64,000 nucleotides of DNA from assembly GCA_032691205.1 (NCBI GenBank), contig GCA_032691205.1_4541.1. One strand, given 5' to 3'. This DNA comes from a phage. The notes below the pieces were generated by a model. That model did no database searches. It had not been told where the DNA came from and saw only the letters and a list, made by a program, of their open reading frames with translations. Below, piece by piece: positions 1 through 36,951 of this stretch (position 1 is the stretch's first letter; every line of letters starts with the position of its first letter). The translations under genes were made by a program, and so were the position numbers.

Positions 1-27
1 ATTAGTTAGGCTTTTTGTGATTTTCAT
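1..27 (-). CDS. hypothetical protein (5' end only; gene runs off the left edge)
   Basis: Minus-strand ATG at 25-27 just downstream of repeat unit 1 (49-104); weak RBS. Confidence 0.25.
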
Positions 28-48
28 GATTTTTCTCTCTTCTTGTGA

Positions 49-104
49 GCGGCACCATTGCCGCCCTACAAGATACATATTACCAGACTAAGCCGACTTG
101 TCAA
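49..104 (-). promoter_or_regulatory. early promoter + 5'-UTR hairpin unit 1
   Basis: Minus strand reads TTGACA-16nt-TAATAT, then hairpin GCGGCA-CCAT-TGCCGC (49-64), then RBS and ATG. Confidence 0.6.
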
Positions 105-216
105 ACTATTTTTTCTTTTTCTTTGCTTCCAACCGTCTAAGGTTACGGCTTGACTTATTGCGCAAGGCGCTTAGATCGTCGTACCCTTTCCATGCTTGCA
201 TATCTTTCGGATTCAT
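88..216 (-). CDS. hypothetical small basic protein (42 aa)
   Basis: Hand-translated minus ORF MNPKDMQAWKGYDD...; RBS AAGGGG before ATG at 216. Confidence 0.3.
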
Positions 217-225
217 GTTATCCCC

Positions 226-387
226 TTACTTGTTAGCCGGATTATATGCCAGGACCGCGCCGCTTGCTTTCACGCTTTCCGCTTCATAGTTGCGCAGATC
301 GTTTTCTGTAAGGTTGAGCGCGATCACTTCCTCGATCTCAACGTCAGCGGCAAGGGCGATCTCTTTGATAATGTCTGTTGTTTTCAT
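226..387 (-). CDS. hypothetical protein (53 aa)
   Basis: Hand-translated minus ORF MKTTDIIKEIALAADVEIEE...; below the 60-aa cutoff of the ORF track. Confidence 0.35.
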   Translation of the reverse strand: MKTTDIIKEIALAADVEIEEVIALNLTENDLRNYEAESVKASGAVLAYNPANK

Positions 388-397
388 AGTACGCACC

Positions 398-517
398 TTA
401 TAAGATGATTGATAAGATAGTGATAACGAAAGCGATTATACTGATGGCAAATGTCATCTTTTTACCTTCGGATACTGCCGGATTCTCTACCGTGTATTCT
501 ACTGTGTACTTGCTCAT
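398..517 (-). CDS. hypothetical small hydrophobic protein (39 aa)
   Basis: Minus ATG at 517 with RBS GAGAGGA, directly downstream of unit 2; hydrophobic C-terminus. Confidence 0.35.
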   Translation of the reverse strand: MSKYTVEYTVENPAVSEGKKMTFAISIIAFVITILSIIL

Positions 518-540
518 CGTGTAATCCTCTCGTTTGCTTT

Positions 541-596
541 GGGAACTATTCCCGCCGCCCTATGAATTAAATATACACTATCTCAAAATGATTGCA
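541..596 (-). promoter_or_regulatory. early promoter + 5'-UTR hairpin unit 2
   Basis: Hairpin GGGAA-CTA-TTCCC (541-553); minus-strand -10 TATATT and -35 TTGCAA. Confidence 0.5.
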
Positions 597-613
597 AGCC
601 TTTTTCTAAATTT

Positions 614-898
614 TTATGCAGTAAACAAACCATCATTTACAACGGCGGCGATGATCTCCCGCGCCATTGATTCAGGGAAAGGGGCGCTATAGTCCTGGCT
701 TGTCTCATCGGTATCAGTGATCCAATGATAAGCTAACGAGTAAAAGCCTTTACTAACTGTTTTCAGTGAGATGACGATCACTCGGTCAAGCTTATTGGTG
801 AATGTTGCCGTTAATGTGTTACCCTCCTGCGTCATGTTGGACAAGTAAGCGGGATCATTAATCAGGGAAAACATTAGCACGGTGTTAGCTTTACTCAT
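614..898 (-). CDS. hypothetical protein
   Basis: Track ORF 614..928 trimmed to the internal ATG at 898, which has RBS GAGGA and sits downstream of hairpin 3. Confidence 0.6.
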   Translation of the reverse strand: MSKANTVLMFSLINDPAYLSNMTQEGNTLTATFTNKLDRVIVISLKTVSKGFYSLAYHWITDTDETSQDYSAPFPESMAREIIAAVVNDGLFTA

Positions 899-918
899 GA
901 TTGCATCCTCAAAGGGGC

Positions 919-973
919 GCGGCACCATTGCCGCCCTACACGATAACTATAACACAATGTAAAACAGGATCAA
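919..973 (-). promoter_or_regulatory. early promoter + 5'-UTR hairpin unit 3
   Basis: Minus strand TTGATC-16nt-TATAGT, hairpin GCGGCA-CCAT-TGCCGC (919-934). Confidence 0.6.
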
Positions 974-1176
974 CCTTTATTTTTCCACGGTGTCAGCTTG
1001 TTAATCATTGGTGATAAATAGCGTTTACCAACGTAAAACAGCACGCCAACTGATGCAACGGCGGCGATCTCATGCATAGCCGACGGGAAACGGGTATCAT
1101 AATAAGATCCAATAATAGCAATAGCGGCAACGGCTGCAACGTCGATAATGATTTTTTCTTGTTTTGCGGTGATCAT
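970..1176 (-). CDS. hypothetical small membrane protein
   Basis: Track ORF trimmed to ATG at 1176 (RBS AAAAAGG) downstream of hairpin 4; hydrophobic segment IIIDVAAVAAIAIIG. Confidence 0.55.
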   Translation of the reverse strand: MITAKQEKIIIDVAAVAAIAIIGSYYDTRFPSAMHEIAAVASVGVLFYVGKRYLSPMINKLTPWKNKG

Positions 1177-1198
1177 AATATTTACCTTTTTGTATGGT

Positions 1199-1256
1199 GG
1201 GGGAACTATTCCCCGCCTGATGTAATACAGTTTAACAGGTCCGGTTATGGTGTCAA
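1199..1256 (-). promoter_or_regulatory. early promoter + 5'-UTR hairpin unit 4
   Basis: Minus strand TTGACA-16nt-TAAACT, hairpin GGGGAA-CTA-TTCCCC. Confidence 0.6.
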
Positions 1257-1262
1257 CCACTT

Positions 1263-1448
1263 TTAAAGATATTTTATACTGATAACGTTTTCCGGTTTAA
1301 CCTTGTTGTGATGTGCATCAACATAGATCAAACCATCGTCAGAAAAGCCCAGGATCACGCCCTGCGCAATAAAACCGTATTCGTCACGGTAACGCACGGC
1401 TATTTTTAACGTTGCGTTGTAGGCTGTTTTAAGCTCGCTTAAAGTCAT
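1263..1448 (-). CDS. hypothetical protein
   Basis: ORF 61 aa with RBS GAGGATAA before ATG at 1448. Confidence 0.5.
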   Translation of the reverse strand: MTLSELKTAYNATLKIAVRYRDEYGFIAQGVILGFSDDGLIYVDAHHNKVKPENVISIKYL

Positions 1449-1465
1449 CTTTGTTTATCCTCTAC

Positions 1466-1495
1466 ATGTAAAAAGAAAGGGCGCTTGGTGCGCCC
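1466..1495 (-). terminator. rho-independent terminator
   Basis: Hairpin GGGCGC-TTGGT-GCGCCC followed on the minus strand by TTTCTTTTT, directly after the stop of 1505..1651. Confidence 0.55.
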
Positions 1496-1504
1496 CTTAT
1501 TATG

Positions 1505-1651
1505 TTAATCCTCTAAATCCATCCAATTATATTTGTCACTCTTCCCGCGCTTTGTTTTATTGCGCTTGTCGCCTTTGCGGATCACTTCCTCGTTCCAGGC
1601 CTTGCGGATCTTGGAAGATTGAATTTTTTCTGCGCGATTAGATGTATTCAT
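1505..1651 (-). CDS. hypothetical small basic protein (48 aa)
   Basis: Hand-translated MNTSNRAEKIQSSKIRKAWNEEVIRKGDKRNK...; RBS GAGGAAA; between unit 5 and the terminator. Confidence 0.45.
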   Translation of the reverse strand: MNTSNRAEKIQSSKIRKAWNEEVIRKGDKRNKTKRGKSDKYNWMDLED

Positions 1652-1671
1652 TTTGTTTCCTCTTCATATGA

Positions 1672-1724
1672 GCGGCACCATTGCCGCTATATTGTTAATT
1701 TAAGCTGTTTTGTAAAATTGTCAA
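1672..1724 (-). promoter_or_regulatory. early promoter + 5'-UTR hairpin unit 5
   Basis: Minus strand TTGACA-16nt-TAAATT, hairpin GCGGCA-CCAT-TGCCGC. Confidence 0.6.
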
Positions 1725-1730
1725 GGTTTA

Positions 1731-2084
1731 TCATTCATAAGAGCAAGCAAGGATCACGCCTGCAATATAAAGCCAATAATTTTCCCTTTCTCGTTGGATT
1801 TTATCATCGCTGCTATTCTCTTTAATGTATCCCCAGGATGTTAACAAGCGATCAATTTCCCAATATTCGAAAGCGATATTGATATCTGATGGCAAACCTT
1901 GTAACCATGATGCAAGTGCTTTAACAATACTATAATTAAAACGTGATTGGTTATCAGGGTACCAGTACTCGGAATTAAAACGGCGCATCAATTCCGCGAT
2001 CTTCTCTTTTTCGGTTGTAATACCGTAATCATTAAAATCGATAGCGGCAAGTATGTACTCTTTAATTGCATTTTGTGCTTTCAT
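1731..2084 (-). CDS. hypothetical protein
   Basis: ORF 117 aa downstream of unit 6. Confidence 0.65.
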   Translation of the reverse strand: MKAQNAIKEYILAAIDFNDYGITTEKEKIAELMRRFNSEYWYPDNQSRFNYSIVKALASWLQGLPSDINIAFEYWEIDRLLTSWGYIKENSSDDKIQRERENYWLYIAGVILACSYE

Positions 2085-2103
2085 GGTCTTTCTCTCTTTT
2101 TGA

Positions 2104-2160
2104 GCGGGAACTATTCCCGCCCTACGTGTAACAGTTTACTAAAAATTAAATCGGTGTCAA
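2104..2160 (-). promoter_or_regulatory. early promoter + 5'-UTR hairpin unit 6
   Basis: Minus strand TTGACA-16nt-TAAACT, hairpin GCGGGAA-CTA-TTCCCGC. Confidence 0.6.
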
Positions 2161-2163
2161 GCT

Positions 2164-2385
2164 TTATTTTGTTACTACCATTTGGTACCCTGTTTCAATG
2201 TTAGTAAATACTGTTATTCCGTCCTGGCGTTCACTCATTAGCATACAAGGCGCTAACATCCTTTCTACTGCCTTGCACTCATTGTAAACGGCGGTTATGT
2301 CTCCTGCGGCCTTGTCTTCTGTGGTGAATGTATCGTTTACGTAAACCTGACCAGCGACAACGGCGACAATAGCGAAAGTGATCAT
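2164..2385 (-). CDS. hypothetical protein
   Basis: ORF 73 aa (MITFAIVAVVAG...). Confidence 0.6.
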   Translation of the reverse strand: MITFAIVAVVAGQVYVNDTFTTEDKAAGDITAVYNECKAVERMLAPCMLMSERQDGITVFTNIETGYQMVVTK

Positions 2386-2418
2386 GATGTTTCCTTGTTA
2401 GTAGTGGTTTCTCTTCTC

Positions 2419-2456
2419 TATAGCGCCCATTATAAGGCGCTATAACGAAAAGTCAA
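2419..2456 (-). promoter_or_regulatory. variant promoter with a palindrome over the -10
   Basis: Minus strand TTGACT-16nt-TATAAT; the -10 lies in the loop of a 9-bp palindrome TATAGCGCC/GGCGCTATA. Confidence 0.45.
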
Positions 2457-2459
2457 CGA

Positions 2460-2627
2460 TTATTTTTTAAGGCTTAAAGTACCTAACTTGTCAGCATGAC
2501 GCAGACCAGGGAAGATCCATTTTCCTGATTCATCTTTTACAGGGGCTTTAAGCGTAGCGCCCAGGTTGGCGGCGTTAACTTTACGGGCAACGTTGCGAGC
2601 GGCTTCACGGGTAGTAAAAGTGATCAT
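2460..2627 (-). CDS. hypothetical protein (55 aa)
   Basis: Hand-translated MITFTTREAARNVARKVNAANLG...; downstream of unit 7. Confidence 0.45.
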   Translation of the reverse strand: MITFTTREAARNVARKVNAANLGATLKAPVKDESGKWIFPGLRHADKLGTLSLKK

Positions 2628-2650
2628 GATGTTTTCCTCTTCTCTTTGTT

Positions 2651-2713
2651 AGGCGGTGGACCATTCCGCCGCCTTGATGTAATACAGTTTACTTTATTTT
2701 TGCAGTATTGCAA
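2651..2713 (-). promoter_or_regulatory. early promoter + 5'-UTR hairpin unit 7
   Basis: Minus strand TTGCAA-16nt-TAAACT; 10-bp hairpin AGGCGGTGGA-CCAT-TCCGCCGCCT with one G.U pair. Confidence 0.6.
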
Positions 2714-2718
2714 GCGTT

Positions 2719-2931
2719 TTATGAAATAATCGTCAAAGTAAAATTGTAATCACCTGATTGGTACAATACTTTATCACCGAACGTTCCAACACGTTTAACA
2801 TTGCAATATATACCCATAACACTTTTTACATCTTTGATATTCTTCACGCCTGTAATATCTTTATTAAAATGATCGTGATCAGAAAATAAAACTTGACTTG
2901 CATTTTTTAACAGTGTGCGGATATTAGCCAT
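2719..2931 (-). CDS. hypothetical protein
   Basis: ORF 70 aa downstream of unit 8. Confidence 0.6.
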   Translation of the reverse strand: MANIRTLLKNASQVLFSDHDHFNKDITGVKNIKDVKSVMGIYCNVKRVGTFGDKVLYQSGDYNFTLTIIS

Positions 2932-2956
2932 CGTGATAATCTCTCTTCTGTTGTGA

Positions 2957-3012
2957 GCGGCACTATTGCCGCCCTACGTAATACAGTTTACTCTTTTTCT
3001 TTCCCGTGTCAA
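2957..3012 (-). promoter_or_regulatory. early promoter + 5'-UTR hairpin unit 8
   Basis: Minus strand TTGACA-16nt-TAAACT, hairpin GCGGCA-CTAT-TGCCGC. Confidence 0.6.
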
Positions 3013-3021
3013 CAATCTTTT

Positions 3022-3249
3022 TCAGATTAATTCATCCAGGCATAACAGGCGATCAACGTTGAGATCGGTCAGGCTGATGGTTGGCACCTGGTAGGATTCG
3101 ATGTACTCGACGCTTGCATATTCCCCAAAATTAGCAATAGCCCACTTATTCAAGATCTCACATACATCATTAATCTTTTTGTTTGTTACAACTGCAATAA
3201 CCTGGGAAGTGCCAACGGTGCCGGATACGCGAACAATATTGATAGCCAT
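3022..3249 (-). CDS. hypothetical protein
   Basis: ORF 75 aa downstream of unit 9. Confidence 0.6.
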   Translation of the reverse strand: MAINIVRVSGTVGTSQVIAVVTNKKINDVCEILNKWAIANFGEYASVEYIESYQVPTISLTDLNVDRLLCLDELI

Positions 3250-3271
3250 AATCTTTAATCTCTCTGTTGTT

Positions 3272-3331
3272 GGCGGGAAACCACTTCCCGCCCTATGTGA
3301 TACATCTTACACTAATTTTAAACGTTGTCAA
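3272..3331 (-). promoter_or_regulatory. early promoter + 5'-UTR hairpin unit 9
   Basis: Minus strand TTGACA-16nt-TAAGAT, hairpin GGCGGGAA-ACCAC-TTCCCGCC. Confidence 0.6.
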
Positions 3332-3340
3332 CTGTTTTTA

Positions 3341-3580
3341 TTACATTCCAACCATCGCGGCGCGGATCGCAGTTTTACTATACTTAAAGCCGTCTGGCGT
3401 TGTAGTGATTCCATCCTGTTTCAAACGGTAGCACATTAAATCAGCCGCCTGATCTTTATTACCGCACTCATTGATCAATCCCAATGCAAACCGATACAAT
3501 CCCTCATCGTTATTAATCCACAGGCTTACATTCCAATGAGTTTTGTTTTTGTGACCGTTGTACATTTTAGATTTAGCCAT
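3341..3580 (-). CDS. hypothetical protein
   Basis: ORF 79 aa downstream of unit 10. Confidence 0.6.
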   Translation of the reverse strand: MAKSKMYNGHKNKTHWNVSLWINNDEGLYRFALGLINECGNKDQAADLMCYRLKQDGITTTPDGFKYSKTAIRAAMVGM

Positions 3581-3603
3581 GATTTTTCTCTCTTTTTCAG
3601 TGA

Positions 3604-3662
3604 GGCGGGAAGTGTTCCCGCTCTCTATGTAATACAGTTTACTCTTTTTATTCGTGCTGTCA
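3604..3662 (-). promoter_or_regulatory. early promoter + 5'-UTR hairpin unit 10
   Basis: Minus strand TTGACA-16nt-TAAACT, hairpin GCGGGAA-GTG-TTCCCGC. Confidence 0.6.
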
Positions 3663-3669
3663 ATGCTTT

Positions 3670-4023
3670 TTATAAATCTTTTTTACGTTTTACATCGCTT
3701 GCATGACTGTATACAGCGATCCCATTATCACGACAAAAACGGGTAAGGTATGATCCGCGTGAAAACTCTTTCCCTTCCAGGTCAACAACCTTGCTAAATT
3801 CTTCCAGGGCAACGGTATCAAAATGATCACCATAACCATATTGAAACGGCACGTTAACAACTTCAATCAATTTACCGCCGATCTCAACGTCCACGCTTAA
3901 AGAAAAATATGTGTTACCGTAGGACTGTTGAAACCAGCGACGGGCGCTAATGTGAACGGCTTCAATCTCACCAATTTTAAATTGAGTGTTACCCAGGATC
4001 GCAACGTTGATATTTTTAGCCAT
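3670..4023 (-). CDS. hypothetical protein
   Basis: ORF 117 aa downstream of unit 11. Confidence 0.65.
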   Translation of the reverse strand: MAKNINVAILGNTQFKIGEIEAVHISARRWFQQSYGNTYFSLSVDVEIGGKLIEVVNVPFQYGYGDHFDTVALEEFSKVVDLEGKEFSRGSYLTRFCRDNGIAVYSHASDVKRKKDL

Positions 4024-4048
4024 GATTTTTTCTCTCTTTTTGGTTAGT

Positions 4049-4100
4049 GGGAAGTGTTCCCGATAAAAGTTATTATGCTTATACTATCGTTTTTTGTCAA
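4049..4100 (-). promoter_or_regulatory. early promoter + 5'-UTR hairpin unit 11
   Basis: Minus strand TTGACA-17nt-CATAAT, hairpin GGGAA-GTG-TTCCC. Confidence 0.55.
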
Positions 4101-4119
4101 TAGTATAAGACTAAAACTT

Positions 4120-4299
4120 TTAACGATAATCGTCGTAGGCTTTATTAACCTGGCGAATATAACATTCGAAAGCGAGATCAATAGAATCATATTCCCGCAC
4201 ATAATCCCCGTAAGAAACTACATACACACCTTTTTGATCCTCAAACGTCATGATGATAGAATCCAGGCCGATGATTTCAGTTTTAGCGATGATAGTCAT
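4120..4299 (-). CDS. hypothetical protein (about 59 aa)
   Basis: Hand-translated MTIIAKTEIIGLDSIIMTFEDQKG...; downstream of unit 12. Confidence 0.45.
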   Translation of the reverse strand: MTIIAKTEIIGLDSIIMTFEDQKGVYVVSYGDYVREYDSIDLAFECYIRQVNKAYDDYR

Positions 4300-4320
4300 A
4301 ATAATAACCTTTTTATTGTT

Positions 4321-4377
4321 GGCGGCACCATTGCCGCCCTACGTGATAAACTATACCAGAATTTTAAACAGTGTCAA
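4321..4377 (-). promoter_or_regulatory. early promoter + 5'-UTR hairpin unit 12
   Basis: Minus strand TTGACA-16nt-TATAGT, hairpin GGCGGCA-CCAT-TGCCGCC. Confidence 0.6.
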
Positions 4378-4387
4378 ACGTTTTTTC

Positions 4388-4633
4388 TTAGTTTGCGAAA
4401 TATGGCGCGGCGGCTGATGCCGTTAATCTCCAAGTGATTTGGCTATCGATCAAGTATTCTTCATTCTTGATCCGCACGGTATCAATCGAGAAGTTACTGA
4501 AAGGCTTGCTCTTGATTTTACGAACAACCGTTACACGACGGTTATTTTTCATCTCTTTTAACTGAATCCAGGCGTAACCTTTTTCATTGACAAATATTTC
4601 ATTGTGATTGGTGATAGATGATAAGTGTTTCAT
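4388..4633 (-). CDS. hypothetical protein
   Basis: ORF 81 aa downstream of unit 13. Confidence 0.6.
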   Translation of the reverse strand: MKHLSSITNHNEIFVNEKGYAWIQLKEMKNNRRVTVVRKIKSKPFSNFSIDTVRIKNEEYLIDSQITWRLTASAAAPYFAN

Positions 4634-4656
4634 GATTTGTTTCTCTTCTGTTTTGA

Positions 4657-4716
4657 GCGGTGGACCATTCCGCCGCCCTATGTGTTACATCTTACTACTT
4701 TTTTAAACATTGTCAA
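4657..4716 (-). promoter_or_regulatory. early promoter + 5'-UTR hairpin unit 13
   Basis: Minus strand TTGACA-16nt-TAAGAT, hairpin GCGGTGGA-CCAT-TCCGCCGC. Confidence 0.6.
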
Positions 4717-4724
4717 GGATATTT

Positions 4725-5006
4725 TTAACTATATGATCCACATCGTTCGCAGTAGTGATCATCGTCGTCATCTGCTACCTGGCTGATAAAATGATCTACC
4801 TTTGCTTTCAAATTATTATAATTGCTTTCTACTTCCTGTAGTCGTCGTTGGTAGTATTCCAGGGCTTGCACATAGGCCATTTGTTCGGTTTTAGCTTGCA
4901 CAGCTAAATTCATGCCGCGCGTTTCATCGTATAACCAATAACCATCATTACATTCACTAATAGATAGTGTAGGGCTTAGTTTTTCGTGACGGATAACCTT
5001 GCTCAT
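4725..5006 (-). CDS. hypothetical protein
   Basis: ORF 93 aa. Confidence 0.6.
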   Translation of the reverse strand: MSKVIRHEKLSPTLSISECNDGYWLYDETRGMNLAVQAKTEQMAYVQALEYYQRRLQEVESNYNNLKAKVDHFISQVADDDDDHYCERCGSYS

Positions 5007-5016
5007 GGTGTGCCCC

Positions 5017-5124
5017 TTACTTCAAAATGATTGTTGTGATAACTGCTACGGTGATCCAAAATGGAACGGCTAGAATGATAGCGTTAATCGTTCCAACCGT
5101 CAAACTATTTCCTTTATTAATCAT
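5017..5124 (-). CDS. hypothetical small membrane peptide (about 35 aa)
   Basis: Hand-translated MINKGNSLTVGTINAIILAVPFWITVAVITTIILK; RBS AAGAGG; downstream of unit 14. Confidence 0.35.
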   Translation of the reverse strand: MINKGNSLTVGTINAIILAVPFWITVAVITTIILK

Positions 5125-5153
5125 TGTAAGCCTCTTGCATAATTTCACTATGA

Positions 5154-5210
5154 GCGGCACCATTGCCGCCCTACGTGGTAAATATTATGCCAGTGGCGGC
5201 GATATGTCAA
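5154..5210 (-). promoter_or_regulatory. early promoter + 5'-UTR hairpin unit 14
   Basis: Minus strand TTGACA-17nt-TAATAT, hairpin GCGGCA-CCAT-TGCCGC. Confidence 0.6.
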
Positions 5211-5773
5211 AGACTATTTTCAAAGTTTTCTAGTGCGATCCTTTTTTCTTCCTCTGTCGGCTGATAATCAGGAAAAGCATCAACACACAACAACGGCGGG
5301 ATCTCTTCGTACTCTTCCTCTTCCGTTGTCTCCTCGTCTTCCTCCTGGGCTATGGCTGCAATTTTGGCTAATTTTCTTTCAGCTTGAATCAATTTACCAT
5401 CAAGTACGTTTTTTGCCATGTTGTAAGCGGTCCAGGTGATGCGCTTACTTTCCAGGGCCTGATCGAGCGCCGCTATCTTGCTGGGGTATTCATCCAGGAC
5501 ACGAAAAGCCGGATCAACTTTGTACAAAGGATTATCTTTCGCGCCGTCGCTCGCATCTTCCGCACTGGATAAATCAGCGTTACCATTTGCCAGCCAGCCA
5601 GGGCGCACATAACGCGCTTTTACGTTGCCGTTACTACGTGCTAATCTGTTACCTATTTGCTCACCGCTATATCCCGTGGATTCATCGATAAGATGATCGG
5701 GAATGATGCGCGGATCATCTGCTTCATGTTTTACCCAAGACTGGATCACATATTCGCGGCCCATATTAACCAC
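5207..5773 (-). CDS. hypothetical protein with acidic C-terminal tract
   Basis: ORF 188 aa; EEDEETTEEEEYEE tract. Confidence 0.65.
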   Translation of the reverse strand: MVNMGREYVIQSWVKHEADDPRIIPDHLIDESTGYSGEQIGNRLARSNGNVKARYVRPGWLANGNADLSSAEDASDGAKDNPLYKVDPAFRVLDEYPSKIAALDQALESKRITWTAYNMAKNVLDGKLIQAERKLAKIAAIAQEEDEETTEEEEYEEIPPLLCVDAFPDYQPTEEEKRIALENFENSL

Positions 5774-6023
5774 CTTTTTTCAACAATTGGCATACTTTAA
5801 AAAGACTTGCTGAATCCTTGCAAGGGTAGAAAGATGTACGATAATCACGTACGCCAACCTTGCGGATCTCGATGTTCTCGCATGTTGTTTGATCAAAGAT
5901 ATTTATTTCATCACGCCCCCTTATATAAACATAGTGGGGATGTATTAACGCATATTTTGCTAATCTGTAAAAAGCGTTATCTTTGAACGCGATCACGTGA
6001 CCTTTTAATTTGATGTAAAACAT
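5766..6023 (-). CDS. hypothetical protein
   Basis: ORF 85 aa downstream of unit 15. Confidence 0.6.
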   Translation of the reverse strand: MFYIKLKGHVIAFKDNAFYRLAKYALIHPHYVYIRGRDEINIFDQTTCENIEIRKVGVRDYRTSFYPCKDSASLFKVCQLLKKGG

Positions 6024-6041
6024 TCTACCACCTTACAAATA

Positions 6042-6096
6042 GCGGGAACTATTCCCGCTTTATGTAACATATTAACAAATTATTCGTTAATGTCAA
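6042..6096 (-). promoter_or_regulatory. early promoter + 5'-UTR hairpin unit 15
   Basis: Minus strand TTGACA-16nt-TAATAT, hairpin GCGGGAA-CTA-TTCCCGC. Confidence 0.6.
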
Positions 6097-6099
6097 GCC

Positions 6100-6372
6100 T
6101 TAAAGCAAAAACGCTACATCTTGCGCTTTTAGTGTAGTATCAACCATTTTCGGGCTTTTATAATCAACAAAGCGCGCGGTTTTTTCAATAGCGAAACCGA
6201 GATAATCTTGCTTGTTGAAATTACATTCTTTCTTAAATGTTTCCCGTGCAATGGCAATCGCTGCGTCCAGGGATAAACGCCCGTCAATATTGATATTAGC
6301 GAAAGATCCGCCACCGCTCATAGGTTTACCAGTTGTGCCAGCTACGATCATTGTTGCGCTATATGATGCCAT
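6100..6372 (-). CDS. hypothetical protein
   Basis: ORF 90 aa downstream of unit 16. Confidence 0.6.
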   Translation of the reverse strand: MASYSATMIVAGTTGKPMSGGGSFANINIDGRLSLDAAIAIARETFKKECNFNKQDYLGFAIEKTARFVDYKSPKMVDTTLKAQDVAFLL

Positions 6373-6397
6373 GATGATAATCTCTCTTCTGTTACGA

Positions 6398-6456
6398 GCG
6401 GGAAACCACTTCCCGCCCTATGTGATACATCTTATCAGGTTGTTGTTTGTTGTCAA
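6398..6456 (-). promoter_or_regulatory. early promoter + 5'-UTR hairpin unit 16
   Basis: Minus strand TTGACA-16nt-TAAGAT, hairpin GCGGGAA-ACCAC-TTCCCGC. Confidence 0.6.
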
Positions 6457-6462
6457 TACTTT

Positions 6463-28975: not shown

Positions 28976-28976
28976 T

Positions 28977-29633
28977 ATGACAATAAAACATATTTCTTTT
29001 GATGTATGGAATACTCTTATTTCTGCCAATCAAAACTATGCAGATGCACGTACGCACACTATTGCTACATATGGTAGAATGTCTGAACGTGCGGCAAAAG
29101 AAGCATATAAAGATGCCAAAGAAATTATGGATAATGCTGCACTAAATGGGTGTGCAGAAGGTGTAGCATATGCATGGAATATGTTGGGAAGAAAGATAGG
29201 TTTAACCCCTGTAGAATCTGCACAAATGCGTTTTGAGTGTGAGCAATGGTTTCTTAAATTTCCTCCACATATCGCTTTAGATTTGCCAGTTTGTTTGCTA
29301 TACTTGTCTGGTAAATATGATCTTAGTATTAAAAGCAATACTAATTTTATATCTGGGGATATTTTGCGTCGTGCTTGTATGTTCGACAGTTGGAATTGTT
29401 TTGAATTTATGCATTTTTCAGACGAACATCTGTTATGTAAACCAGATCCTAGATTCTTTGTTAGGACCGCCACATATTCAAGCATTCCTTTGAAGGCTGA
29501 AGAGATTTTACATGTTGGGGACAGCGAAGAATTTGATGGTAAATGTGTTGACATAGGGATTAACTTCTGTCATATTAAGAACCCTAACGATTTACTAGAG
29601 AAACTTAAAAGAGGAGAAATTGTAAATGCGTAA
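28977..29633 (+). CDS. HAD-superfamily-like hydrolase (divergent)
   Basis: ISFDVWNTL (motif I with the second Asp replaced) and LHVGDSEEFDGK (motif IV-like). Confidence 0.4.
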   Translation: MTIKHISFDVWNTLISANQNYADARTHTIATYGRMSERAAKEAYKDAKEIMDNAALNGCAEGVAYAWNMLGRKIGLTPVESAQMRFECEQWFLKFPPHIALDLPVCLLYLSGKYDLSIKSNTNFISGDILRRACMFDSWNCFEFMHFSDEHLLCKPDPRFFVRTATYSSIPLKAEEILHVGDSEEFDGKCVDIGINFCHIKNPNDLLEKLKRGEIVNA

Positions 29634-30453
29634 TCAAACTCAAATTTTTGCAAATAAATTTGATGACCTGGAAACTGCTACTTTTGATATCAAAGACTAT
29701 TCAAAATTGAAATTTGGTTGTAACCAAGCTGCGCGTCGTATGGGTAAAGAATTGGCACTTCAGTTTTTTGCTCAAGTGGCAATGAAACATATTGGGGAAC
29801 AATTTGTTATCATCCCTTCTCCTTATAACCATGTGCACAATGCTGCAACAATGATGACAGATCATTTTATTAATTACTTTAATATGTTGCAAGCACAATA
29901 TGATCAAGGTCGTTCAGCAGAACTGGATATTATTCATCGTAAAGTTAGCTATATCAACGATTATGGTTTCTTGGATAAAGCTAGTCGTAAGAAACTTATT
30001 GATGGGGATACATTCTACTGCAACAAAGAATTCTGGGGTGATAAGAAGCTTGTGTTCATTGATGATGTAAATATCACCGGAACTCATGAAGACAAACTGA
30101 TTGAGATTCTTGATGAAAATCAAGTTAAAAATGATGTTTACTTCTTGTATTTTGCAAAATATGAAGGTAATCAAGCAGATACTGAAGCTAAACTGAATTT
30201 TAACTACATCAATACACCAGAAGCGTTTGTTAAAATGATTAATGAAGAACGTGATGCACAGTGTCTTGTTCGTCCTATTAAGTATCTTATGGGCCAAAAT
30301 CACGAAGACTTCAAAATCATTCTTAGCCAATTGCCACACTACTATGTAGAGCAACTTTTCTTCGGATGTTTGGGAGAAGGTTACAACCGAATTTCAAAGT
30401 ATGCTGAAAACTTTGAATTCTTGGATCGTTACACAAAACAACACATTCTGTAA
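29626..30453 (+). CDS. phosphoribosyltransferase-like protein
   Basis: PRPP-binding signature KKLVFIDDVNITGTHEDKL. Confidence 0.55.
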   Translation: MRNQTQIFANKFDDLETATFDIKDYSKLKFGCNQAARRMGKELALQFFAQVAMKHIGEQFVIIPSPYNHVHNAATMMTDHFINYFNMLQAQYDQGRSAELDIIHRKVSYINDYGFLDKASRKKLIDGDTFYCNKEFWGDKKLVFIDDVNITGTHEDKLIEILDENQVKNDVYFLYFAKYEGNQADTEAKLNFNYINTPEAFVKMINEERDAQCLVRPIKYLMGQNHEDFKIILSQLPHYYVEQLFFGCLGEGYNRISKYAENFEFLDRYTKQHIL

Positions 30454-30466
30454 TAAGGAGCTAAAA

Positions 30467-30940
30467 ATGCTTAAAATGAAAACAGGTAATCTTATTGATG
30501 CCGCTAAAGCAGGTGAAGTAACTGTTATTGCTCATTGTTGCAATTGTATGTGTAATATGGGAGCAGGAATTGCTCCGCAAATTAAACGAGCATTCCCTTA
30601 TGCATATGCGGCAGATTTAGACACAATGGCTGGTGATCAAAGTAAGTTAGGTTCTTTTAGTTTAGGGGTGCCAGACGAACAATCAGACCCTTTGGTATAT
30701 AATCTATACGGGCAATACCGTTACGGATACAATGCTAAAGGTCGTCAGTTGGACTATGATGCACTTTACGATGCACTAATAGCTATGGCTAATGATTTGC
30801 TTCTCCGTGACCAAAAATGTAAGATAGGTTTACCTATGATTGGAGCGGGACATGCCGGAGGTAATTGGGCTATCATCCAAGTGATGATTGAAGAAACTTT
30901 AGTAAAAACAGGTCACGATGTGACTATTTATAAACTTTAA
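30467..30940 (+). CDS. macro-domain protein (ADP-ribose binding/hydrolase)
   Basis: Start MLKMKTGN with RBS TAAGGAG; EVTVIAHCCNCMCNMGAGIAPQIKRAFP and IGLPMIGAGHAGG. Confidence 0.65.
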   Translation: MLKMKTGNLIDAAKAGEVTVIAHCCNCMCNMGAGIAPQIKRAFPYAYAADLDTMAGDQSKLGSFSLGVPDEQSDPLVYNLYGQYRYGYNAKGRQLDYDALYDALIAMANDLLLRDQKCKIGLPMIGAGHAGGNWAIIQVMIEETLVKTGHDVTIYKL

Positions 30941-30952
30941 GAGGAGATTAGT

Positions 30953-31174
30953 ATGGGTGTTTTTGCAGGTATTGTTGCAGTGGTAAGCTTTTTTGTTATT
31001 GCTTTTATGCTTAGTTTGATTCCAGCTTGGTTACTGTTGCTGGCTTACAACTATGTTGCTGAAGTTATGGGTCATGCAGATATCACTGTCCCAGTAACCT
31101 TCTGGACCGTGGTTTGTGTTTCGTTTATTTTGGCGGTATTACGAGGAATCTTTTCCTCTCATTCAACAAAATAA
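30953..31174 (+). CDS. hypothetical small membrane protein
   Basis: 73 aa, two predicted TM helices. Confidence 0.55.
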   Translation: MGVFAGIVAVVSFFVIAFMLSLIPAWLLLLAYNYVAEVMGHADITVPVTFWTVVCVSFILAVLRGIFSSHSTK

Positions 31175-31177
31175 GTG

Positions 31178-31236
31178 TTGACATAGTTCTTAAAAAGAGT
31201 AAGATATATCACATGAAGCGGGGAATAGTTCCCCGC
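31178..31236 (+). promoter_or_regulatory. early-type promoter + 5'-UTR hairpin unit (only plus-strand copy), upstream of terC
   Basis: TTGACA-16nt-TAAGAT then hairpin GCGGGGAA-TAG-TTCCCCGC (31218-31236), RBS AGAGGAGAA. Confidence 0.6.
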
Positions 31237-31253
31237 AAAGAGAGGAGAAAAGA

Positions 31254-32228
31254 ATGCAACTCGGTTTCCCAATTATTGATGTAGTTGTTTTAGTTGGTAT
31301 TTTAGCATTGTCTATTGGTATCGATTTCTTTGGTCATAAAGAGAATAAAGAAATTGGAATTAAATCTGCTTTGCTTTGGTCTGTTTTTTGGATTGCTTTA
31401 GCTTTAGGGTATTACGCATTCATTTGGGTAGAACATGGTAAAGAGTTTGCCGCGCTTTTCCTAAGTGGCTATGTGTTGGAAAAGAGTCTTTCTGTAGATA
31501 ACCTAATGGTGTTCATGGCAATTTTTGCAAGCTTTGGAATTAAGAGCACACATCTCCAACATAAGATTCTACTTTGGGGGATTGCAGGAGCCATTGTCTT
31601 CCGAGGTATTTTTGTTGCAGCAGGGACCGCTTTGTTTAACCTTCATTGGTCGGTCCAAGTGTTGTTCGGTTTGATTGTAGCTTGGTCTGCCGTGGCTATC
31701 ATCAAAGGTGGTGACGAAGAAGAGGATATTGATTACTCTAAACATTGGGCTGTTCGTTTAGTAGGTAAAGTTCTGCCTGTGCACAATGCACTGGATGGTG
31801 AAAAGTTCATCACCATTAAGAATGGTATTAAATATGCAACTCCTGCTCTTCTTTGTGTGTTTGTTATTGAGCTTACAGATATTGTCTTCTCTTTTGATTC
31901 AGTTCCGGCTGTGATCGGTGTGACACAAGAACCTCTGCTAGTTTATTCTGCAATGCTGATGGCTGTTCTTGGTTTACGTGCACTTTTCTTTGTGTTAAGT
32001 GTAGCTGTGAAATATCTGGTTCACTTAGAGAAAGCTGTTGCTGTGGTTCTGGTGTTTGTTGGTGCTAAACTTATGTATCACCCGTTCGGTGAAACACTTC
32101 ATGCCAAGTGGTCATTCCTCCCGCATGATATTTCCCCTAACGTAAGTCTGATGATTGTTCTAGGCACATTATCTCTTGGTGTTATTGCAAGCTTTATCTT
32201 CCCTGAAAAAGAAGAAGCTACTGTTTAA
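31254..32228 (+). CDS. terC: TerC-family integral membrane protein
   Basis: 324 aa multi-pass; conserved LEKSLSVDNLMVF and ELTDIVFSFDSVPAVIGV. Confidence 0.65.
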   Translation: MQLGFPIIDVVVLVGILALSIGIDFFGHKENKEIGIKSALLWSVFWIALALGYYAFIWVEHGKEFAALFLSGYVLEKSLSVDNLMVFMAIFASFGIKSTHLQHKILLWGIAGAIVFRGIFVAAGTALFNLHWSVQVLFGLIVAWSAVAIIKGGDEEEDIDYSKHWAVRLVGKVLPVHNALDGEKFITIKNGIKYATPALLCVFVIELTDIVFSFDSVPAVIGVTQEPLLVYSAMLMAVLGLRALFFVLSVAVKYLVHLEKAVAVVLVFVGAKLMYHPFGETLHAKWSFLPHDISPNVSLMIVLGTLSLGVIASFIFPEKEEATV

Positions 32229-32234
32229 TAAATG

Positions 32235-32258
32235 AGCCTCCTTCGGGAGGCTATTTTA
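32235..32258 (+). terminator. rho-independent terminator
   Basis: AGCCTCC-TTCG-GGAGGCT then ATTTTAT. Confidence 0.6.
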
Positions 32259-32270
32259 TAGGAGAGACTT

Positions 32271-32621
32271 ATGAGTAATTTTGATGAAATTCAAGAACTT
32301 GTTTGGGATTTATCTGGTGATGTGGATTACGTTTTAGATTATCTTTCAAAAGTTTACCCTGGGGTAAGCGTTATGATCGTGACCAAAGATCCAATTAATT
32401 TGCCTCCTAATGTGGTAGCTTGTTGTGGGAGTGGTTCAGGGGAAGTGGAGCCTGTATCCCGTTGGGAATTAACTAAAGCTGTTTCAAAACGAAACGGTGA
32501 AGTTTTGAATATTGATATCGAGCAAATATGGACTTCTCCAGCAGCTAAATGGAATGATCCGAATGGTTGGGACTTGTTCTTCTGGGATAATGAAACTGAT
32601 GATGAGGTATTTTTAAAATGA
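32271..32621 (+). CDS. hypothetical protein
   Basis: ORF 116 aa. Confidence 0.55.
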   Translation: MSNFDEIQELVWDLSGDVDYVLDYLSKVYPGVSVMIVTKDPINLPPNVVACCGSGSGEVEPVSRWELTKAVSKRNGEVLNIDIEQIWTSPAAKWNDPNGWDLFFWDNETDDEVFLK

Positions 32622-32804
32622 AATACTTGTTGGTTGTGTTTGAAAATATTTGTTTTGCAATAGGGTTGTTTGTTGTAATTTTTGTATTGACAAGCGTAAT
32701 CAACGGCAGTAAAGTGAGTTTATACCGAGATGGAGAGCAACTTTATTGCTTCTCTGGAGATTTCAAACACAGATGTATTAATAGCCAAAACGAGGAAAGC
32801 AAAT

Positions 32805-33242
32805 ATGAAAAAACTAGCCCTGATTTTAATTGGTTGTATCTTTTTAACAGCTTGCGAGGATGAAACAAATCCTGCACAATACCAACAACCTCCTCAACAA
32901 TACGCTCAACAAGGATCTGACGGAGATACAACTATTATCAACAATGGTGGCGGTTCTAGTAGTAGCGGTGTTGGTGAGTTTGCTACAGGTATGTTGTTAG
33001 GGCATATGATGAGTGGCGGTAGTAATCGTAGCAGTGGGGATTATAACGATAACAGAACGATTATTAATAAGCATTATAATACACCTAAACCGAAAACTAA
33101 TTTTTATAGTAAGCCTAAACAAGAGATAAAAACTTATGAAAAGCCGAGACAAACTTTTAAAACAAATAGTAGCTATACAACTCGTAAATCTTACAATAGC
33201 CCTTTAAGTAAAAAGAGTTCATCTCGTAGCAAGCGACGTTAA
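32805..33242 (+). CDS. lipoprotein with Gly-rich segment
   Basis: MKKLALILIGCIFLTAC lipobox; GGGSSSSGVGEFATGMLLGHMMSGG; RBS GAGGAAAG. Confidence 0.55.
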   Translation: MKKLALILIGCIFLTACEDETNPAQYQQPPQQYAQQGSDGDTTIINNGGGSSSSGVGEFATGMLLGHMMSGGSNRSSGDYNDNRTIINKHYNTPKPKTNFYSKPKQEIKTYEKPRQTFKTNSSYTTRKSYNSPLSKKSSSRSKRR

Positions 33243-33256
33243 TAAGGAGAAAAACA

Positions 33257-33850
33257 ATGACAATTTCTATTCGTACTTCCATCGTAGGTGTTAAAAGGTT
33301 GCCTAATGCTTTGCAAATCACACGCGCTTTGAGGGATACATTCTCTGCTGTGGACGAGCATAAGATGCTTGATAATCTTTCAAATTGGCCCTATTTCCAT
33401 TATTTTAAAAATGAAGATGACGAGTTTATAGACGCTGTTTCTTATGGTTATGATTTCGGTAAGGAGGTTTCTGCTGAAGAATTTGTAGCTATGGTGTTCC
33501 CAAACGGTTTGCCTACTCGCAGTAAACGTAAAAAAGGACCAAAAAACAAGAAACGTGCTACTAATAAAGCTACCATTTTCTTTACTGATGGCACACAATA
33601 TACGATTAAAGATTTTGAAGAGGTATCTTATACAGCAGGTGGGAATCTTTCTTTCTACACCATCAAAAAACAAAACTCTACGTTCAGCCATGTTTCTAAC
33701 ATGATTGAAATGTTAGTAGAAGATATTGAAAGCGTAGCTGTGTTAGGTATGCATAAAAGCTTTTTAATTACAAATATTTCAGATTTCAGTGCACGTTTAT
33801 CTGGTCCTGATTTTGAAACCACGACCACGCATTTCACTTTTAAGGTGTAA
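33257..33850 (+). CDS. hypothetical protein
   Basis: ORF 197 aa, RBS AAGGAGAA. Confidence 0.6.
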   Translation: MTISIRTSIVGVKRLPNALQITRALRDTFSAVDEHKMLDNLSNWPYFHYFKNEDDEFIDAVSYGYDFGKEVSAEEFVAMVFPNGLPTRSKRKKGPKNKKRATNKATIFFTDGTQYTIKDFEEVSYTAGGNLSFYTIKKQNSTFSHVSNMIEMLVEDIESVAVLGMHKSFLITNISDFSARLSGPDFETTTTHFTFKV

Positions 33851-33853
33851 GTT

Positions 33854-35553: not shown

Positions 35554-35747
35554 GAATCCGTATCTATATAATTGATGAAGACATTGGTGTCCGTTATGAT
35601 GACGAAAAACGATTCGCGCCGATGGGAGGCATATATCCCCCAAGTGTTCTAGCAGTTTGTCGTGATTGTTATATTTATGAAGGTTGTCGTAACTTCCGTA
35701 AATTCGAACTCCTTGCAGATATTGACTTCAATGAGGAGGAGGAGTAA
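35550..35747 (+). CDS. hypothetical protein
   Basis: ORF 65 aa, acidic C-terminus. Confidence 0.45.
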   Translation: MRIRIYIIDEDIGVRYDDEKRFAPMGGIYPPSVLAVCRDCYIYEGCRNFRKFELLADIDFNEEEE

Positions 35748-35920
35748 TGAAAATATTACGAGTGAATATTGAAACTGCTTGGTGTGGATGCAATGAGGTT
35801 GTGGATATCGAAATTGAAGATGATATGTCTCAAGAGGATATAGAAGATCTTGCGCACGAAACCTTTCAGGACTATTGTAATTACGGGTTTCATATTTTAG
35901 AGGAGGAAGAAGATGTTTAA
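35747..35920 (+). CDS. hypothetical protein (57 aa)
   Basis: ATG at 35747 with RBS GAGGAGGAGGAG. Confidence 0.4.
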   Translation: MKILRVNIETAWCGCNEVVDIEIEDDMSQEDIEDLAHETFQDYCNYGFHILEEEEDV

Positions 35921-36950: not shown

Positions 36951-36951
36951 T

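What the first reader, a model, noticed from the sequence alone, without database searches (positions are those of the whole stretch)
31178..32258. terC is the only rightward gene driven by the early-type promoter-hairpin unit
A complete copy of the leftward early-array unit sits on the plus strand directly upstream of terC, and the gene is closed by a strong terminator. That suggests terC is expressed immediately on infection, independently of its neighbours.
Basis: seen in the sequence. Interest (0 to 1): 0.45.

Follow-up and report, generated by a model that had tools for sequence, protein, structure and literature searches.

The report
Early-type promoter-hairpin cassette driving phage terC
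A phAPEC8-like coliphage gives its Alx-type TerC membrane-protein gene its own copy of the promoter-plus-hairpin unit otherwise found only before its array of small unknown genes, so terC is probably switched on by the host polymerase at the start of infection, though no expression data exist to confirm it.

Summary
The window is a Phapecoctavirus (phAPEC8/ESCO13-like) genome segment. Window 31173-31258 (+) holds a full unit: A-rich tract, TTGACA, 16 nt, TAAGAT, 'ATCACAT' start region, an 8-bp GC hairpin, a purine-rich ribosome-binding site, then the terC ATG.

A covariance model built only from 14 leftward array units scores it 59.3 bits (E 2.7e-10). The next best hit in the other 57 kb, both strands, scores 22 bits and is a promoter without hairpin. 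In the complete ESCO13 genome, every other strong copy lies in the array.

The unit, and a 3' UUCG hairpin after terC, are conserved in phi92, phiWec181, tuntematon and a Klebsiella phage, with compensatory stem changes. The cassette is therefore old and under selection.

- The promoter should be read by unmodified host sigma-70 polymerase, which implies early expression.
- No terminator shields terC from upstream transcription.
- Other rightward genes also have consensus sigma-70 promoters.
- The downstream gene has no predicted promoter in the 42-nt gap, so the 3' hairpin probably leaks.
- No expression data were found.

The 5' hairpin has no U tract. It is most likely a 5' leader stabiliser, not a terminator.

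The closest described concept is the PeSL cassettes of T4-like phages. This is an ordinary but tidy regulatory feature.

The parts
31160..31177 (+). A-rich tract upstream of the -35 (cattcaacaaaataagtg), resembling a proximal UP element
   Evidence: Read from the sequence. The array units carry the same kind of tract, such as ATAAAAACAG, ATAAAAAGCA and GAAAAAACGT, directly before TTGACA. The function is inferred.
31178..31183 (+). -35 hexamer TTGACA
   Evidence: It is invariant in all 14 aligned units. The equivalent site is annotated as a promoter in GenBank MZ726793.1.
31200..31205 (+). -10 hexamer TAAGAT, 16 nt after the -35
   Evidence: The same hexamer and spacing occur in array units at 3331, 4716 and 6456.
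31211..31213 (+). Predicted transcription start (A31211 or A31213) within the conserved ATCACAT
   Evidence: Inferred from the usual 6-8 nt distance from the -10. The motif is conserved in the array. It has not been mapped experimentally.
31218..31236 (+). 5' leader hairpin GCGGGGAA-uag-UUCCCCGC (8 bp stem, 3-nt loop)
   Evidence: The fold is -14.6 kcal/mol, z = -4.5. Covariation across 30 units gives 91% paired, 5 of 9 pairs with changes on both sides, and 0 of 500 shuffles as high. Orthologous copies before terC keep the pairing with different sequence, in phi92 and a Klebsiella phage. It is followed by AAAGAGAG, with no U tract.
31240..31247 (+). Purine-rich ribosome-binding site GAGAGGAG, 6 nt before the ATG
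   Evidence: It stays unpaired in the predicted fold. It is annotated as a ribosome_binding_site in ESCO13.
31254..32228 (+). terC coding sequence, 324 aa, an Alx-type TerC integral membrane protein
   Evidence: Pfam TerC PF03741, E 3e-40. NCBIfam TIGR03718 R_switched_Alx, 318.6 bits against a cutoff of 246.4. It is 100% identical to the ESCO13 protein.
32235..32259 (+). 3' hairpin AGCCUCC-UUCG-GGAGGCU plus AUUUUAU, a likely leaky intrinsic terminator or 3'-end protector
   Evidence: The terminator scan flags it. The fold is -16.9 kcal/mol, z = -4.6. The stem and UUCG loop are conserved with compensatory changes, but the U tract is not. The equivalent site is called a terminator by TransTermHP and WebGeSTer in MZ726793.1.
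27..6461 (-). Leftward array of 14 strong promoter-hairpin units of the same family, each before a small gene of unknown function
   Evidence: Model hits of 48-80 bits lie at 27-109, 1176-1261, 1650-1729, 2082-2165, 2631-2718, 2935-3017, 3251-3336, 3582-3668, 4025-4105, 4300-4382, 4635-4721, 5132-5215, 6020-6101 and 6376-6461. A weak hit lies at 6660-6743. The seven downstream ORFs tested match PHROGs of unknown function.

Best explanation
terC sits in a self-contained expression cassette. The cassette runs from an A-rich tract, through a sigma-70 promoter, a leader of about 43 nt that begins with a stable GC hairpin, a strong ribosome-binding site and the terC ORF, to a UUCG-capped 3' hairpin.

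Shown here:
- The promoter-leader part is a true member of the repeat family that precedes each small gene of the leftward array.
- It is the only strong copy outside that array.
- The cassette is conserved in two genera and a Klebsiella phage of the Stephanstirmvirinae.

Inferred mechanism:
- Unmodified host E-sigma70 recognises the promoter as soon as the DNA enters the cell.
- Transcription starts near A31211-A31213.
- The hairpin forms within the first 26 nt or so of the RNA. It acts as a 5' leader structure that protects or insulates the message, for example against 5'-end-dependent RNase E attack, while leaving the ribosome-binding site free.
- The 3' hairpin ends or protects a fraction of transcripts. 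This gives a monocistronic terC mRNA of about 1.05 kb on top of read-through from upstream genes.

The phage thereby replaces the Mn2+/pH riboswitch leader that controls cellular alx-type genes with a constitutive, early-type leader.
For: Family membership without circularity: model R2, built without terC, gives 59.3 bits, E 2.7e-10, and the next hit scores 22 bits. The whole-genome proxy agrees.

Conservation and compensatory change at the orthologous site: GCGGGGAA/TTCCCCGC in the window, GCGGAGGA/TCCTCCGC in phi92 and AAGAGGGGG/CTCCCTCTT in the Klebsiella phage.

Covariation over 30 units: 91% paired, 5 of 9 pairs changed on both sides, 0 of 500 shuffles as high, and slid controls at 32-66% paired.

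Position of the hairpin: it starts 8-14 nt after the -10 in every unit, while its distance to the start codon varies from 17 to 30 nt. It is followed by purines, not U.

Strand: G-U pairs make the sense-strand fold more stable than the antisense fold in 40 of 60 units.

Ribosome-binding site: it is unpaired in the predicted fold.

Protein and leader: TerC matches the R_switched_Alx subfamily. No yybP-ykoY or other Rfam match is present. Cellular alx is riboswitch-controlled (PMC10197570).

Stabilisation of mRNA by 5'-terminal stem-loops in E. coli is established knowledge (Emory, Bouvet and Belasco 1992, cited from memory).
Against: - No transcript data exist for this phage group. The start site, timing and 3' end are all predictions.
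- With the predicted start, 5-7 unpaired nt precede the terC hairpin. That is more than the 2-4 nt reported to be optimal for 5'-end protection. The array copies leave 3-5 nt.
- The -10 matches the consensus at only 4 of 6 positions, and the spacer is 16 nt.
- The covariation alignment was fitted to the structure. The copies are also related, as paralogues and near-identical genomes, so the statistics are inflated.
- Upstream read-through could dominate terC expression.
- The sense/antisense stability difference is small (0.8 kcal/mol). For the window's own terC hairpin it is nil.
Confidence: 0.6

Rival explanations
1. The unit is a PeSL-type composite promoter/terminator cassette. On this reading the hairpin attenuates or terminates transcription coming from upstream. 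The repeated unit would mainly serve as a patch of homology for modular shuffling of genes.
For: - PeSLs of T4-like phages combine consensus sigma-70 promoters, upstream AT-rich tracts and GC-rich stem-loops next to small genes of unknown function. Their stem-loops terminated transcription in reporter assays (PMC2839356).
- WebGeSTer labels the 5' hairpin a rho-independent terminator in MZ726793.1.
- The array is mosaic between relatives: 93% coverage in 3-7 pieces at about 95% identity.
- In the Klebsiella phage a weaker (26-bit) match to the unit, with promoter and hairpin, precedes an HNH endonuclease gene.
Against: - No U tract follows any of the hairpins; the tails are purine-rich.
- TransTermHP did not call the 5' hairpin in the MZ726793.1 annotation, although it did call the 3' one.
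- The hairpin lies downstream of the predicted start, so it would also stop the unit's own transcripts.
- terC is conserved, not a variable gene. The terC allele swap between the window and tuntematon has its breakpoints inside the ORF ends, not at the unit.
Confidence: 0.15
2. The hairpin is a recognition site for a trans-acting phage or host factor that co-regulates all unit-bearing transcripts. Possible actions are early shut-off, translational control or boxB-like antitermination. terC would then belong to that regulon.
For: - The stem base GCGG...CCGC is nearly invariant in array copies, both in the window and in phi92.
- The hairpin's position relative to the promoter is fixed.
- The family is restricted to one gene class plus terC.
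Against: - Loop sequences vary (UAG, AUGG, AUAG, GUGG, CAC), and stems switch between GGCA/UGCC and GGGAA/UUCCC types.
- The Klebsiella phage terC hairpin has an unrelated sequence, while that phage's array hairpins keep GCGG...CCGC. This argues for structure rather than sequence recognition at terC.
- No candidate binding protein was identified.
Confidence: 0.15
3. terC is expressed mainly by read-through as part of the long rightward replication and nucleotide-metabolism transcription block. Its own promoter would be a minor or vestigial contributor, so its timing would follow its neighbours.
For: - There is no terminator between upstream genes and terC. The upstream stop codon lies 4 nt before the -35.
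- The neighbouring genes belong to the same Ter-type system and might be expected to be co-expressed.
- The -10 matches only 4 of 6 consensus positions.
Against: - The perfect -35, the spacing, the -10 pattern and the hairpin are all conserved upstream of terC, down to phi92 and a Klebsiella phage with 71-88% protein identity. This argues that the promoter is under selection.
- Its score is mid-range for the family: 67.5 bits, ninth of 15.
Confidence: 0.15

Closest known systems
PeSL (promoter-early stem-loop) cassettes of T4-like phages (Arbiol, Comeau and Krisch 2010, PMC2839356; Comeau et al. 2014, PMC4122927)
   Same: Both are short repeated intergenic cassettes. Each has an AT-rich tract, a consensus sigma-70 promoter, a GC-rich stem-loop, then a ribosome-binding site and start codon. 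Both are clustered before small genes of unknown function in a mosaic region.
   Different: - The phage lineage differs: Stephanstirmvirinae, not T4-like.
- Here the stem-loop always lies after the predicted start, inside the 5' leader. In PeSLs it is mostly between or over the -35 and -10.
- It lacks a U tract, so a terminator role is doubtful.
- The dispersed copy drives a conserved, annotated gene (terC) rather than a variable gene of unknown function.
5'-terminal stabilising stem-loops of E. coli mRNAs (ompA 5' UTR; Emory, Bouvet and Belasco 1992, from memory)
   Same: A stable hairpin lies within a few nucleotides of the mRNA 5' end, upstream of an accessible ribosome-binding site.
   Different: The function is untested here. 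The predicted single-stranded 5' extension (5-7 nt for terC) is longer than the reported optimum. There is no sequence relationship.
Cellular alx / TerC genes under the yybP-ykoY Mn2+ (and pH) riboswitch (PMC10197570, PMC13594968)
   Same: The protein subfamily is the same: TIGR03718 R_switched_Alx, 318.6 bits.
   Different: The phage gene has a leader of about 43 nt with a single hairpin and no riboswitch (Rfam: nothing). Control is by a constitutive phage promoter rather than by metal or pH sensing.
Morons of temperate phages (promoter-gene-terminator insertions; Hendrix and colleagues, from memory)
   Same: A single accessory gene is bracketed by its own promoter and a terminator-like hairpin.
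   Different: - The host phage is lytic.
- The gene is present in all relatives examined.
- Its G+C (0.39-0.42) is close to that of its neighbours.
- It lies inside a functionally related Ter gene cluster.
Existing annotation of Escherichia phage vB_EcoM_ASO2A, GenBank MZ726793.1 (PMC10612097)
   Same: The same three elements around terC are already annotated by prediction software. They are a promoter, a 'terminator' at the 5' hairpin and a terminator at the 3' hairpin.
   Different: The record and paper only list and count the predictions. They do not relate the terC unit to the array family. They read the 5' hairpin as a terminator.

Membership tests
Promoter-hairpin unit family of the leftward array (this phage) | Perfect TTGACA, a 16(-17) nt spacer, a TAnnnT -10 and an A-rich tract upstream | tested here: met
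   The terC unit has TTGACA, 16 nt, TAAGAT and AAAATAAGTG upstream. The array units are the same.
Promoter-hairpin unit family of the leftward array (this phage) | A GC-rich hairpin of 7-10 bp starting 8-14 nt after the -10, followed by a purine-rich ribosome-binding site | tested here: met
   The terC hairpin starts 12 nt after the -10, has an 8-bp stem and folds at -14.6 kcal/mol.
Promoter-hairpin unit family of the leftward array (this phage) | Significant score against a sequence-plus-structure model built without the candidate | tested here: met
   R2 gives 59.3 bits, E 2.7e-10. The next hit elsewhere scores 22.3 bits.
PeSL cassettes (T4-like phages) | A strong sigma-70-like early promoter with an adjacent GC-rich stem-loop in one short intergenic cassette | tested here: met
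   compared with the description in PMC2839356.
PeSL cassettes (T4-like phages) | The stem-loop works as a transcription terminator or attenuator | tested here: inconclusive
   There is no U tract after the hairpin. In MZ726793.1 it is called by WebGeSTer but not by TransTermHP. Activity cannot be measured with these tools.
PeSL cassettes (T4-like phages) | The cassette flanks variable genes of unknown function and marks recombination breakpoints | tested here: not met
   This applies to the terC copy. terC is conserved, and the allele-swap breakpoints lie inside the ORF, near 31354 and 32148. The array itself is mosaic, but its breakpoints were not mapped.
Intrinsic (rho-independent) terminator, 3' of terC | A GC-rich stem-loop followed directly by a U-rich tract | tested here: inconclusive
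   The 7-bp stem with 5 GC pairs and a UUCG loop is present and conserved. The tract is AUUUUAU here but CUUUGU, UUCUAC or UCUUAC in relatives. Efficiency is not testable here.
TerC/Alx family (Pfam PF03741; NCBIfam TIGR03718) | Profile score above the curated cutoff | tested here: met
   PF03741 gives 138.3 bits against 27.8. TIGR03718 gives 318.6 bits against 246.4.
yybP-ykoY riboswitch-controlled alx leader | A Mn2+ riboswitch aptamer in the 5' leader | tested here: not met
   No Rfam hit at gathering score anywhere in the window. No yybP-ykoY hit at E up to 10 in 30900-32400. The leader is only about 43 nt.
Moron | Own promoter and terminator around one accessory gene | tested here: met
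Moron | Presence/absence polymorphism between otherwise collinear relatives, and deviant base composition | tested here: not met
   terC is present in all Stephanstirmvirinae examined (loci L004-L007). Its G+C is 0.39-0.42 against 0.33-0.40 in the flanks.

The most novel reading that the evidence does not exclude
The shared 5' leader hairpin marks a post-transcriptional regulon. A phage or host factor would read the structure to co-ordinate, stabilise or later shut off all immediate-early messages. TerC, an Alx-type Mn2+ exporter or membrane component of the phage's own Ter system, would be its single conserved member with an assignable function. That would mean the phage needs to change membrane or metal status, or to exclude superinfecting phages, in the first minutes of infection.
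Probability: 0.15. Interest if true: 0.6.

Novelty: new member of a known kind. Interest (0 to 1): 0.3.

Why it matters
If confirmed, it gives a simple rule for reading transcription in phAPEC8/phi92-like therapeutic phages. The promoter-hairpin unit would mark host-polymerase-dependent immediate-early genes. It would place TerC, and perhaps the phage's Ter system, in the host-takeover phase, which fits the proposal that phage Ter systems act against competitors (PMC7824862). It also shows a phage swapping the Mn2+/pH riboswitch of a cellular alx-type gene for a constitutive leader. The compact unit of about 85 nt could serve as a portable strong expression element. None of this overturns current ideas. 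The elements are already auto-annotated in one GenBank record.

Tried and rejected
- **Riboswitch or other known RNA family in the terC leader.** Rfam found nothing at gathering score in the window, and only chance-level hits at E up to 10.
- **5' hairpin as an intrinsic terminator.** No U tract follows it in any unit.
- **RNase III site.** Stems of 8-10 bp are too short for RNase III, judged from general knowledge.
- **Recent horizontal 'moron' insertion.** The cassette is conserved across the relatives examined, and its G+C is like its neighbours'.
- **T4-late-like motif TATAAATA as an alternative promoter class near terC.** There are 3 matches in the window against 4.8 expected, and none is relevant.
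- **tRNA or tmRNA genes.** None in the window.
- **Exact source genome.** The window is 100% identical to ESCO13 around terC but only about 95% identical, in pieces, to any record over the array. ESCO13 therefore served only as a proxy for the whole genome; an exact-match search for the window inside ESCO13 found nothing.
- **Literature on transcription of these phages.** Several searches found nothing. The phi92 genome paper is not held.
- **First MAFFT alignment.** It misplaced some stem columns. Model-based realignment was used for the pair counts, which biases them towards the structure.

Full report
**What the window is.** The 3 kb around the finding is 100% identical to Escherichia phage ESCO13 (Phapecoctavirus, Stephanstirmvirinae) and 98-99.9% identical to phAPEC8-like phages. 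The left 9 kb matches no record better than about 95% identity, and only in pieces. The window therefore comes from a mosaic relative, and ESCO13 (fetched as L001-L003) serves only as a whole-genome proxy. Genes run leftward in 1-15200, rightward in 15376-53285 and leftward again from 53313.

**The observation.** The sequence shows these elements:
- TTGACA at 31178-31183, a 16-nt spacer and TAAGAT at 31200-31205.
- The conserved start region ATATCACAT.
- Hairpin GCGGGGAA-tag-TTCCCCGC at 31218-31236.
- Ribosome-binding site GAGAGGAG at 31240-31247.
- terC from 31254 to 32228.
- AGCCTCC-ttcg-GGAGGCT at 32235-32252, followed by ATTTTAT.

The same architecture recurs many times on the minus strand between 27 and 6461. 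A typical copy reads A-rich tract, TTGACA, N16, TAAnnTGTATCACATA, GGGCGG(G/C)AA...TT(C/G)CCGCTC, purine-rich ribosome-binding site, ATG.

**Is the similarity more than chance?**
- Model R1, which included terC, found 14 leftward units at 48-80 bits and the terC unit at 67.5 bits with filters off. The next plus-strand hits score 23.6 and 21.6 bits and have a promoter but no hairpin.
- To avoid circularity, model R2 was built from 14 array units only. It scores the terC unit 59.3 bits, E 2.7e-10. The next best hit in 57 kb on both strands scores 22.3 bits.
- Pairwise identity of the terC unit to array units is 43-68%, mean 55%. Array units match each other at a mean of 56.5%.
- In complete ESCO13, 19 strong units lie at record 139050-148499. 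The only other strong hit is terC, on the opposite strand. A 26-bit hit at ESCO13 41541-41628 is a consensus promoter with an unrelated hairpin.

**The hairpin is a selected structure.**
- It folds at -14.6 kcal/mol, z = -4.5. Array copies are similar.
- Across 30 distinct units from the window, phi92 and terC loci of relatives, 91% of cells pair. Five of nine pairs show changes on both sides. No shuffle out of 500 reaches the observed covariation score. Slid controls pair at only 32-66%. The caveats are that the alignment was fitted to the model and the copies are related.
- At the orthologous site before terC, the stem is GCGGGGAA/TTCCCCGC in the window and tuntematon, GCGGAGGA/TCCTCCGC in phi92 and AAGAGGGGG/CTCCCTCTT in Klebsiella phage phi1_175008.
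- The Klebsiella phage's array hairpins still read GCGG...CCGC. At terC, pairing rather than sequence is what is kept.
- G-U pairs make the sense-strand RNA fold more stable than the antisense fold in 40 of 60 units. This is weak, non-independent evidence for an RNA-level role.

**What the hairpin probably does.**
- It begins 8-14 nt after the -10 in every unit, about +2 to +8 of the predicted transcript. Its distance to the start codon varies from 17 to 30 nt. It is therefore tied to the promoter and 5' end, not to the ribosome-binding site.
- The eight bases after it are purine-rich in all units, with no U tract. It does not look like an intrinsic terminator.
- The ribosome-binding site stays unpaired in the predicted fold.
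- The best reading is a 5' leader stem-loop that stabilises or insulates the message, as known for E. coli mRNAs (Emory, Bouvet and Belasco 1992, from memory). This step is inferred.
- One weakness is that the predicted terC transcript would carry 5-7 unpaired nt before the stem.

**The 3' end.**
- The UUCG-capped stem is stable (-16.9 kcal/mol, z = -4.6).
- It is conserved with compensatory changes (AGCCTCC/GGAGGCT, AACCTCC/GGAGGTT, AGCCCC/GGGGCT). The U tract decays in relatives.
- The next gene starts at 32271, and no promoter is predicted for it nearby. The element is therefore probably a leaky terminator or a 3'-end protector, not a proven 'strong terminator'.

**The interpretation.** A perfect -35, an A-rich upstream tract and a TAnnnT -10 should be read by unmodified host E-sigma70. 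Expression from the start of infection is plausible. Four points limit the claim:
1. No transcript data for this phage group were found.
2. No terminator-like site lies on the plus strand between 27796 and 32235. The upstream gene stops 4 nt before the -35. terC also receives upstream read-through.
3. Other rightward genes have consensus promoters: 14731, 17138, 37903 (12/12 with TG) and 45426.
4. The 3' hairpin probably leaks.

**The gene and its context.**
- TerC matches Pfam PF03741 (E 3e-40) and the NCBIfam subfamily R_switched_Alx (318.6 bits against a cutoff of 246.4).
- Cellular alx genes are controlled by the yybP-ykoY Mn2+/pH riboswitch (PMC10197570, PMC13594968). The phage leader has none.
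- terC lies in a phage-borne Ter-type cluster:
  - a weak, below-cutoff HAD-like hydrolase match at 28956-29633;
  - PRTase_3 at 29626-30453;
  - Macro at 30401-30940;
  - TelA at 34441-35553;
  - vWA-TerF-like at 36952-37746;
  - TerD at 38257-38859.
- Such phage Ter systems have been proposed to act against superinfecting phages (PMC7824862).
- The G+C of terC (0.39-0.42) is close to that of its neighbours. The cassette is present in phi92-like, phAPEC8-like and Klebsiella relatives. It is an old resident, not a recent moron.

**Comparison with what is known.**
- The closest described concept is the PeSL cassette of T4-like phages: sigma-70 promoter plus GC stem-loop before small genes of unknown function, proposed to terminate upstream transcription and mediate modular shuffling (PMC2839356, PMC4122927).
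- The present family shares the composition and the clustering in a mosaic region. It differs in lineage, in the fixed position of the hairpin inside the leader, in lacking a U tract, and in having one copy before a conserved gene.
- GenBank MZ726793.1 (phage ASO2A) already annotates the three elements by software. They are a promoter, a 'terminator' at the 5' hairpin called by WebGeSTer only, and a terminator 3' of terC called by TransTermHP and WebGeSTer. The paper merely counts them (PMC10612097).

**Verdict.** The feature is real, non-random and conserved. The mechanism is plausible but untested. It is a new member of a known kind of regulatory cassette, of moderate to low interest.

Noticed in passing
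window 28956-38859 (+): A fairly complete phage-borne Ter-type system surrounds terC. It comprises a weak HAD-like hydrolase match (below the Pfam cutoff), PRTase_3 (ComF-like), Macro domain, TerC, SprT-like, TelA, vWA-TerF-like and TerD. Similar sets were described for a few jumbo phages and 'related smaller phages' (PMC7824862).
   Followed up: partly
window 31354-32148 compared with L005 (tuntematon): The terC allele has been replaced. The flanks are 95-100% identical between the window and phage tuntematon, but the body of the ORF is only 56-74% identical. Breakpoints lie inside the first and last ~100 nt of the gene. Two TerC alleles, about 72% identical at the protein level, circulate within Phapecoctavirus.
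   Followed up: partly
window 1-9000: The array region matches no database record better than about 95% identity, and only in 3-7 pieces, while the terC region is 100% identical to ESCO13. The offset between window and ESCO13 coordinates differs by about 2.8 kb between terC and the array. This points to insertions, deletions and mosaicism in or near the array.
   Followed up: no
window 37903-37930 (+): A perfect 12/12 sigma-70 consensus promoter with an extended TG (TTGACA-16-TATAAT) lies inside ORF 37743-37991. It sits just upstream of ORF 37972-38241 and the TerD gene. It has no 5' hairpin.
   Followed up: no
L002 41541-41628 (-) = ESCO13 record 41541-41628: A second promoter-plus-leader-hairpin lies on the same strand as terC but outside the window. 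It reads TTGACT-16-TATAAT followed by TGGGAGGA-ggtgag-TCCTCCCA, and scores only 26 bits against the family model.
   Followed up: partly
L009 4742-4826 (-), Klebsiella phage phi1_175008: A promoter-hairpin unit (TTGACT...TAGAAT, GGGGAGAg-atgg-TTCTCCCC) precedes an HNH endonuclease gene inside the Ter/replication block. This suggests such units travel with inserted genes.
   Followed up: no
window 30953-31174 (+): The 73-aa ORF directly upstream of the terC promoter looks like a small protein with two transmembrane segments. It belongs to a PHROG of unknown function. A small gene also occupies this position in all four relatives examined.
   Followed up: no
window 25004-25024 and 53288-53311: Two strong two-way terminator-like hairpins are present: AAAGGCGCA-ctt-TGCGCCTTT and GAAAGGAGCC-aaat-GGCTCCTTTT. 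The second lies at the convergent boundary between the rightward block and the leftward structural genes.
   Followed up: no
L008 20271-20613 (phi92 record 148270-148612): In phi92 the array of promoter-hairpin units is transcribed towards, and ends about 1.1 kb before, the annotated right direct terminal repeat. In this phage group the array therefore sits at a physical genome end.
   Followed up: no
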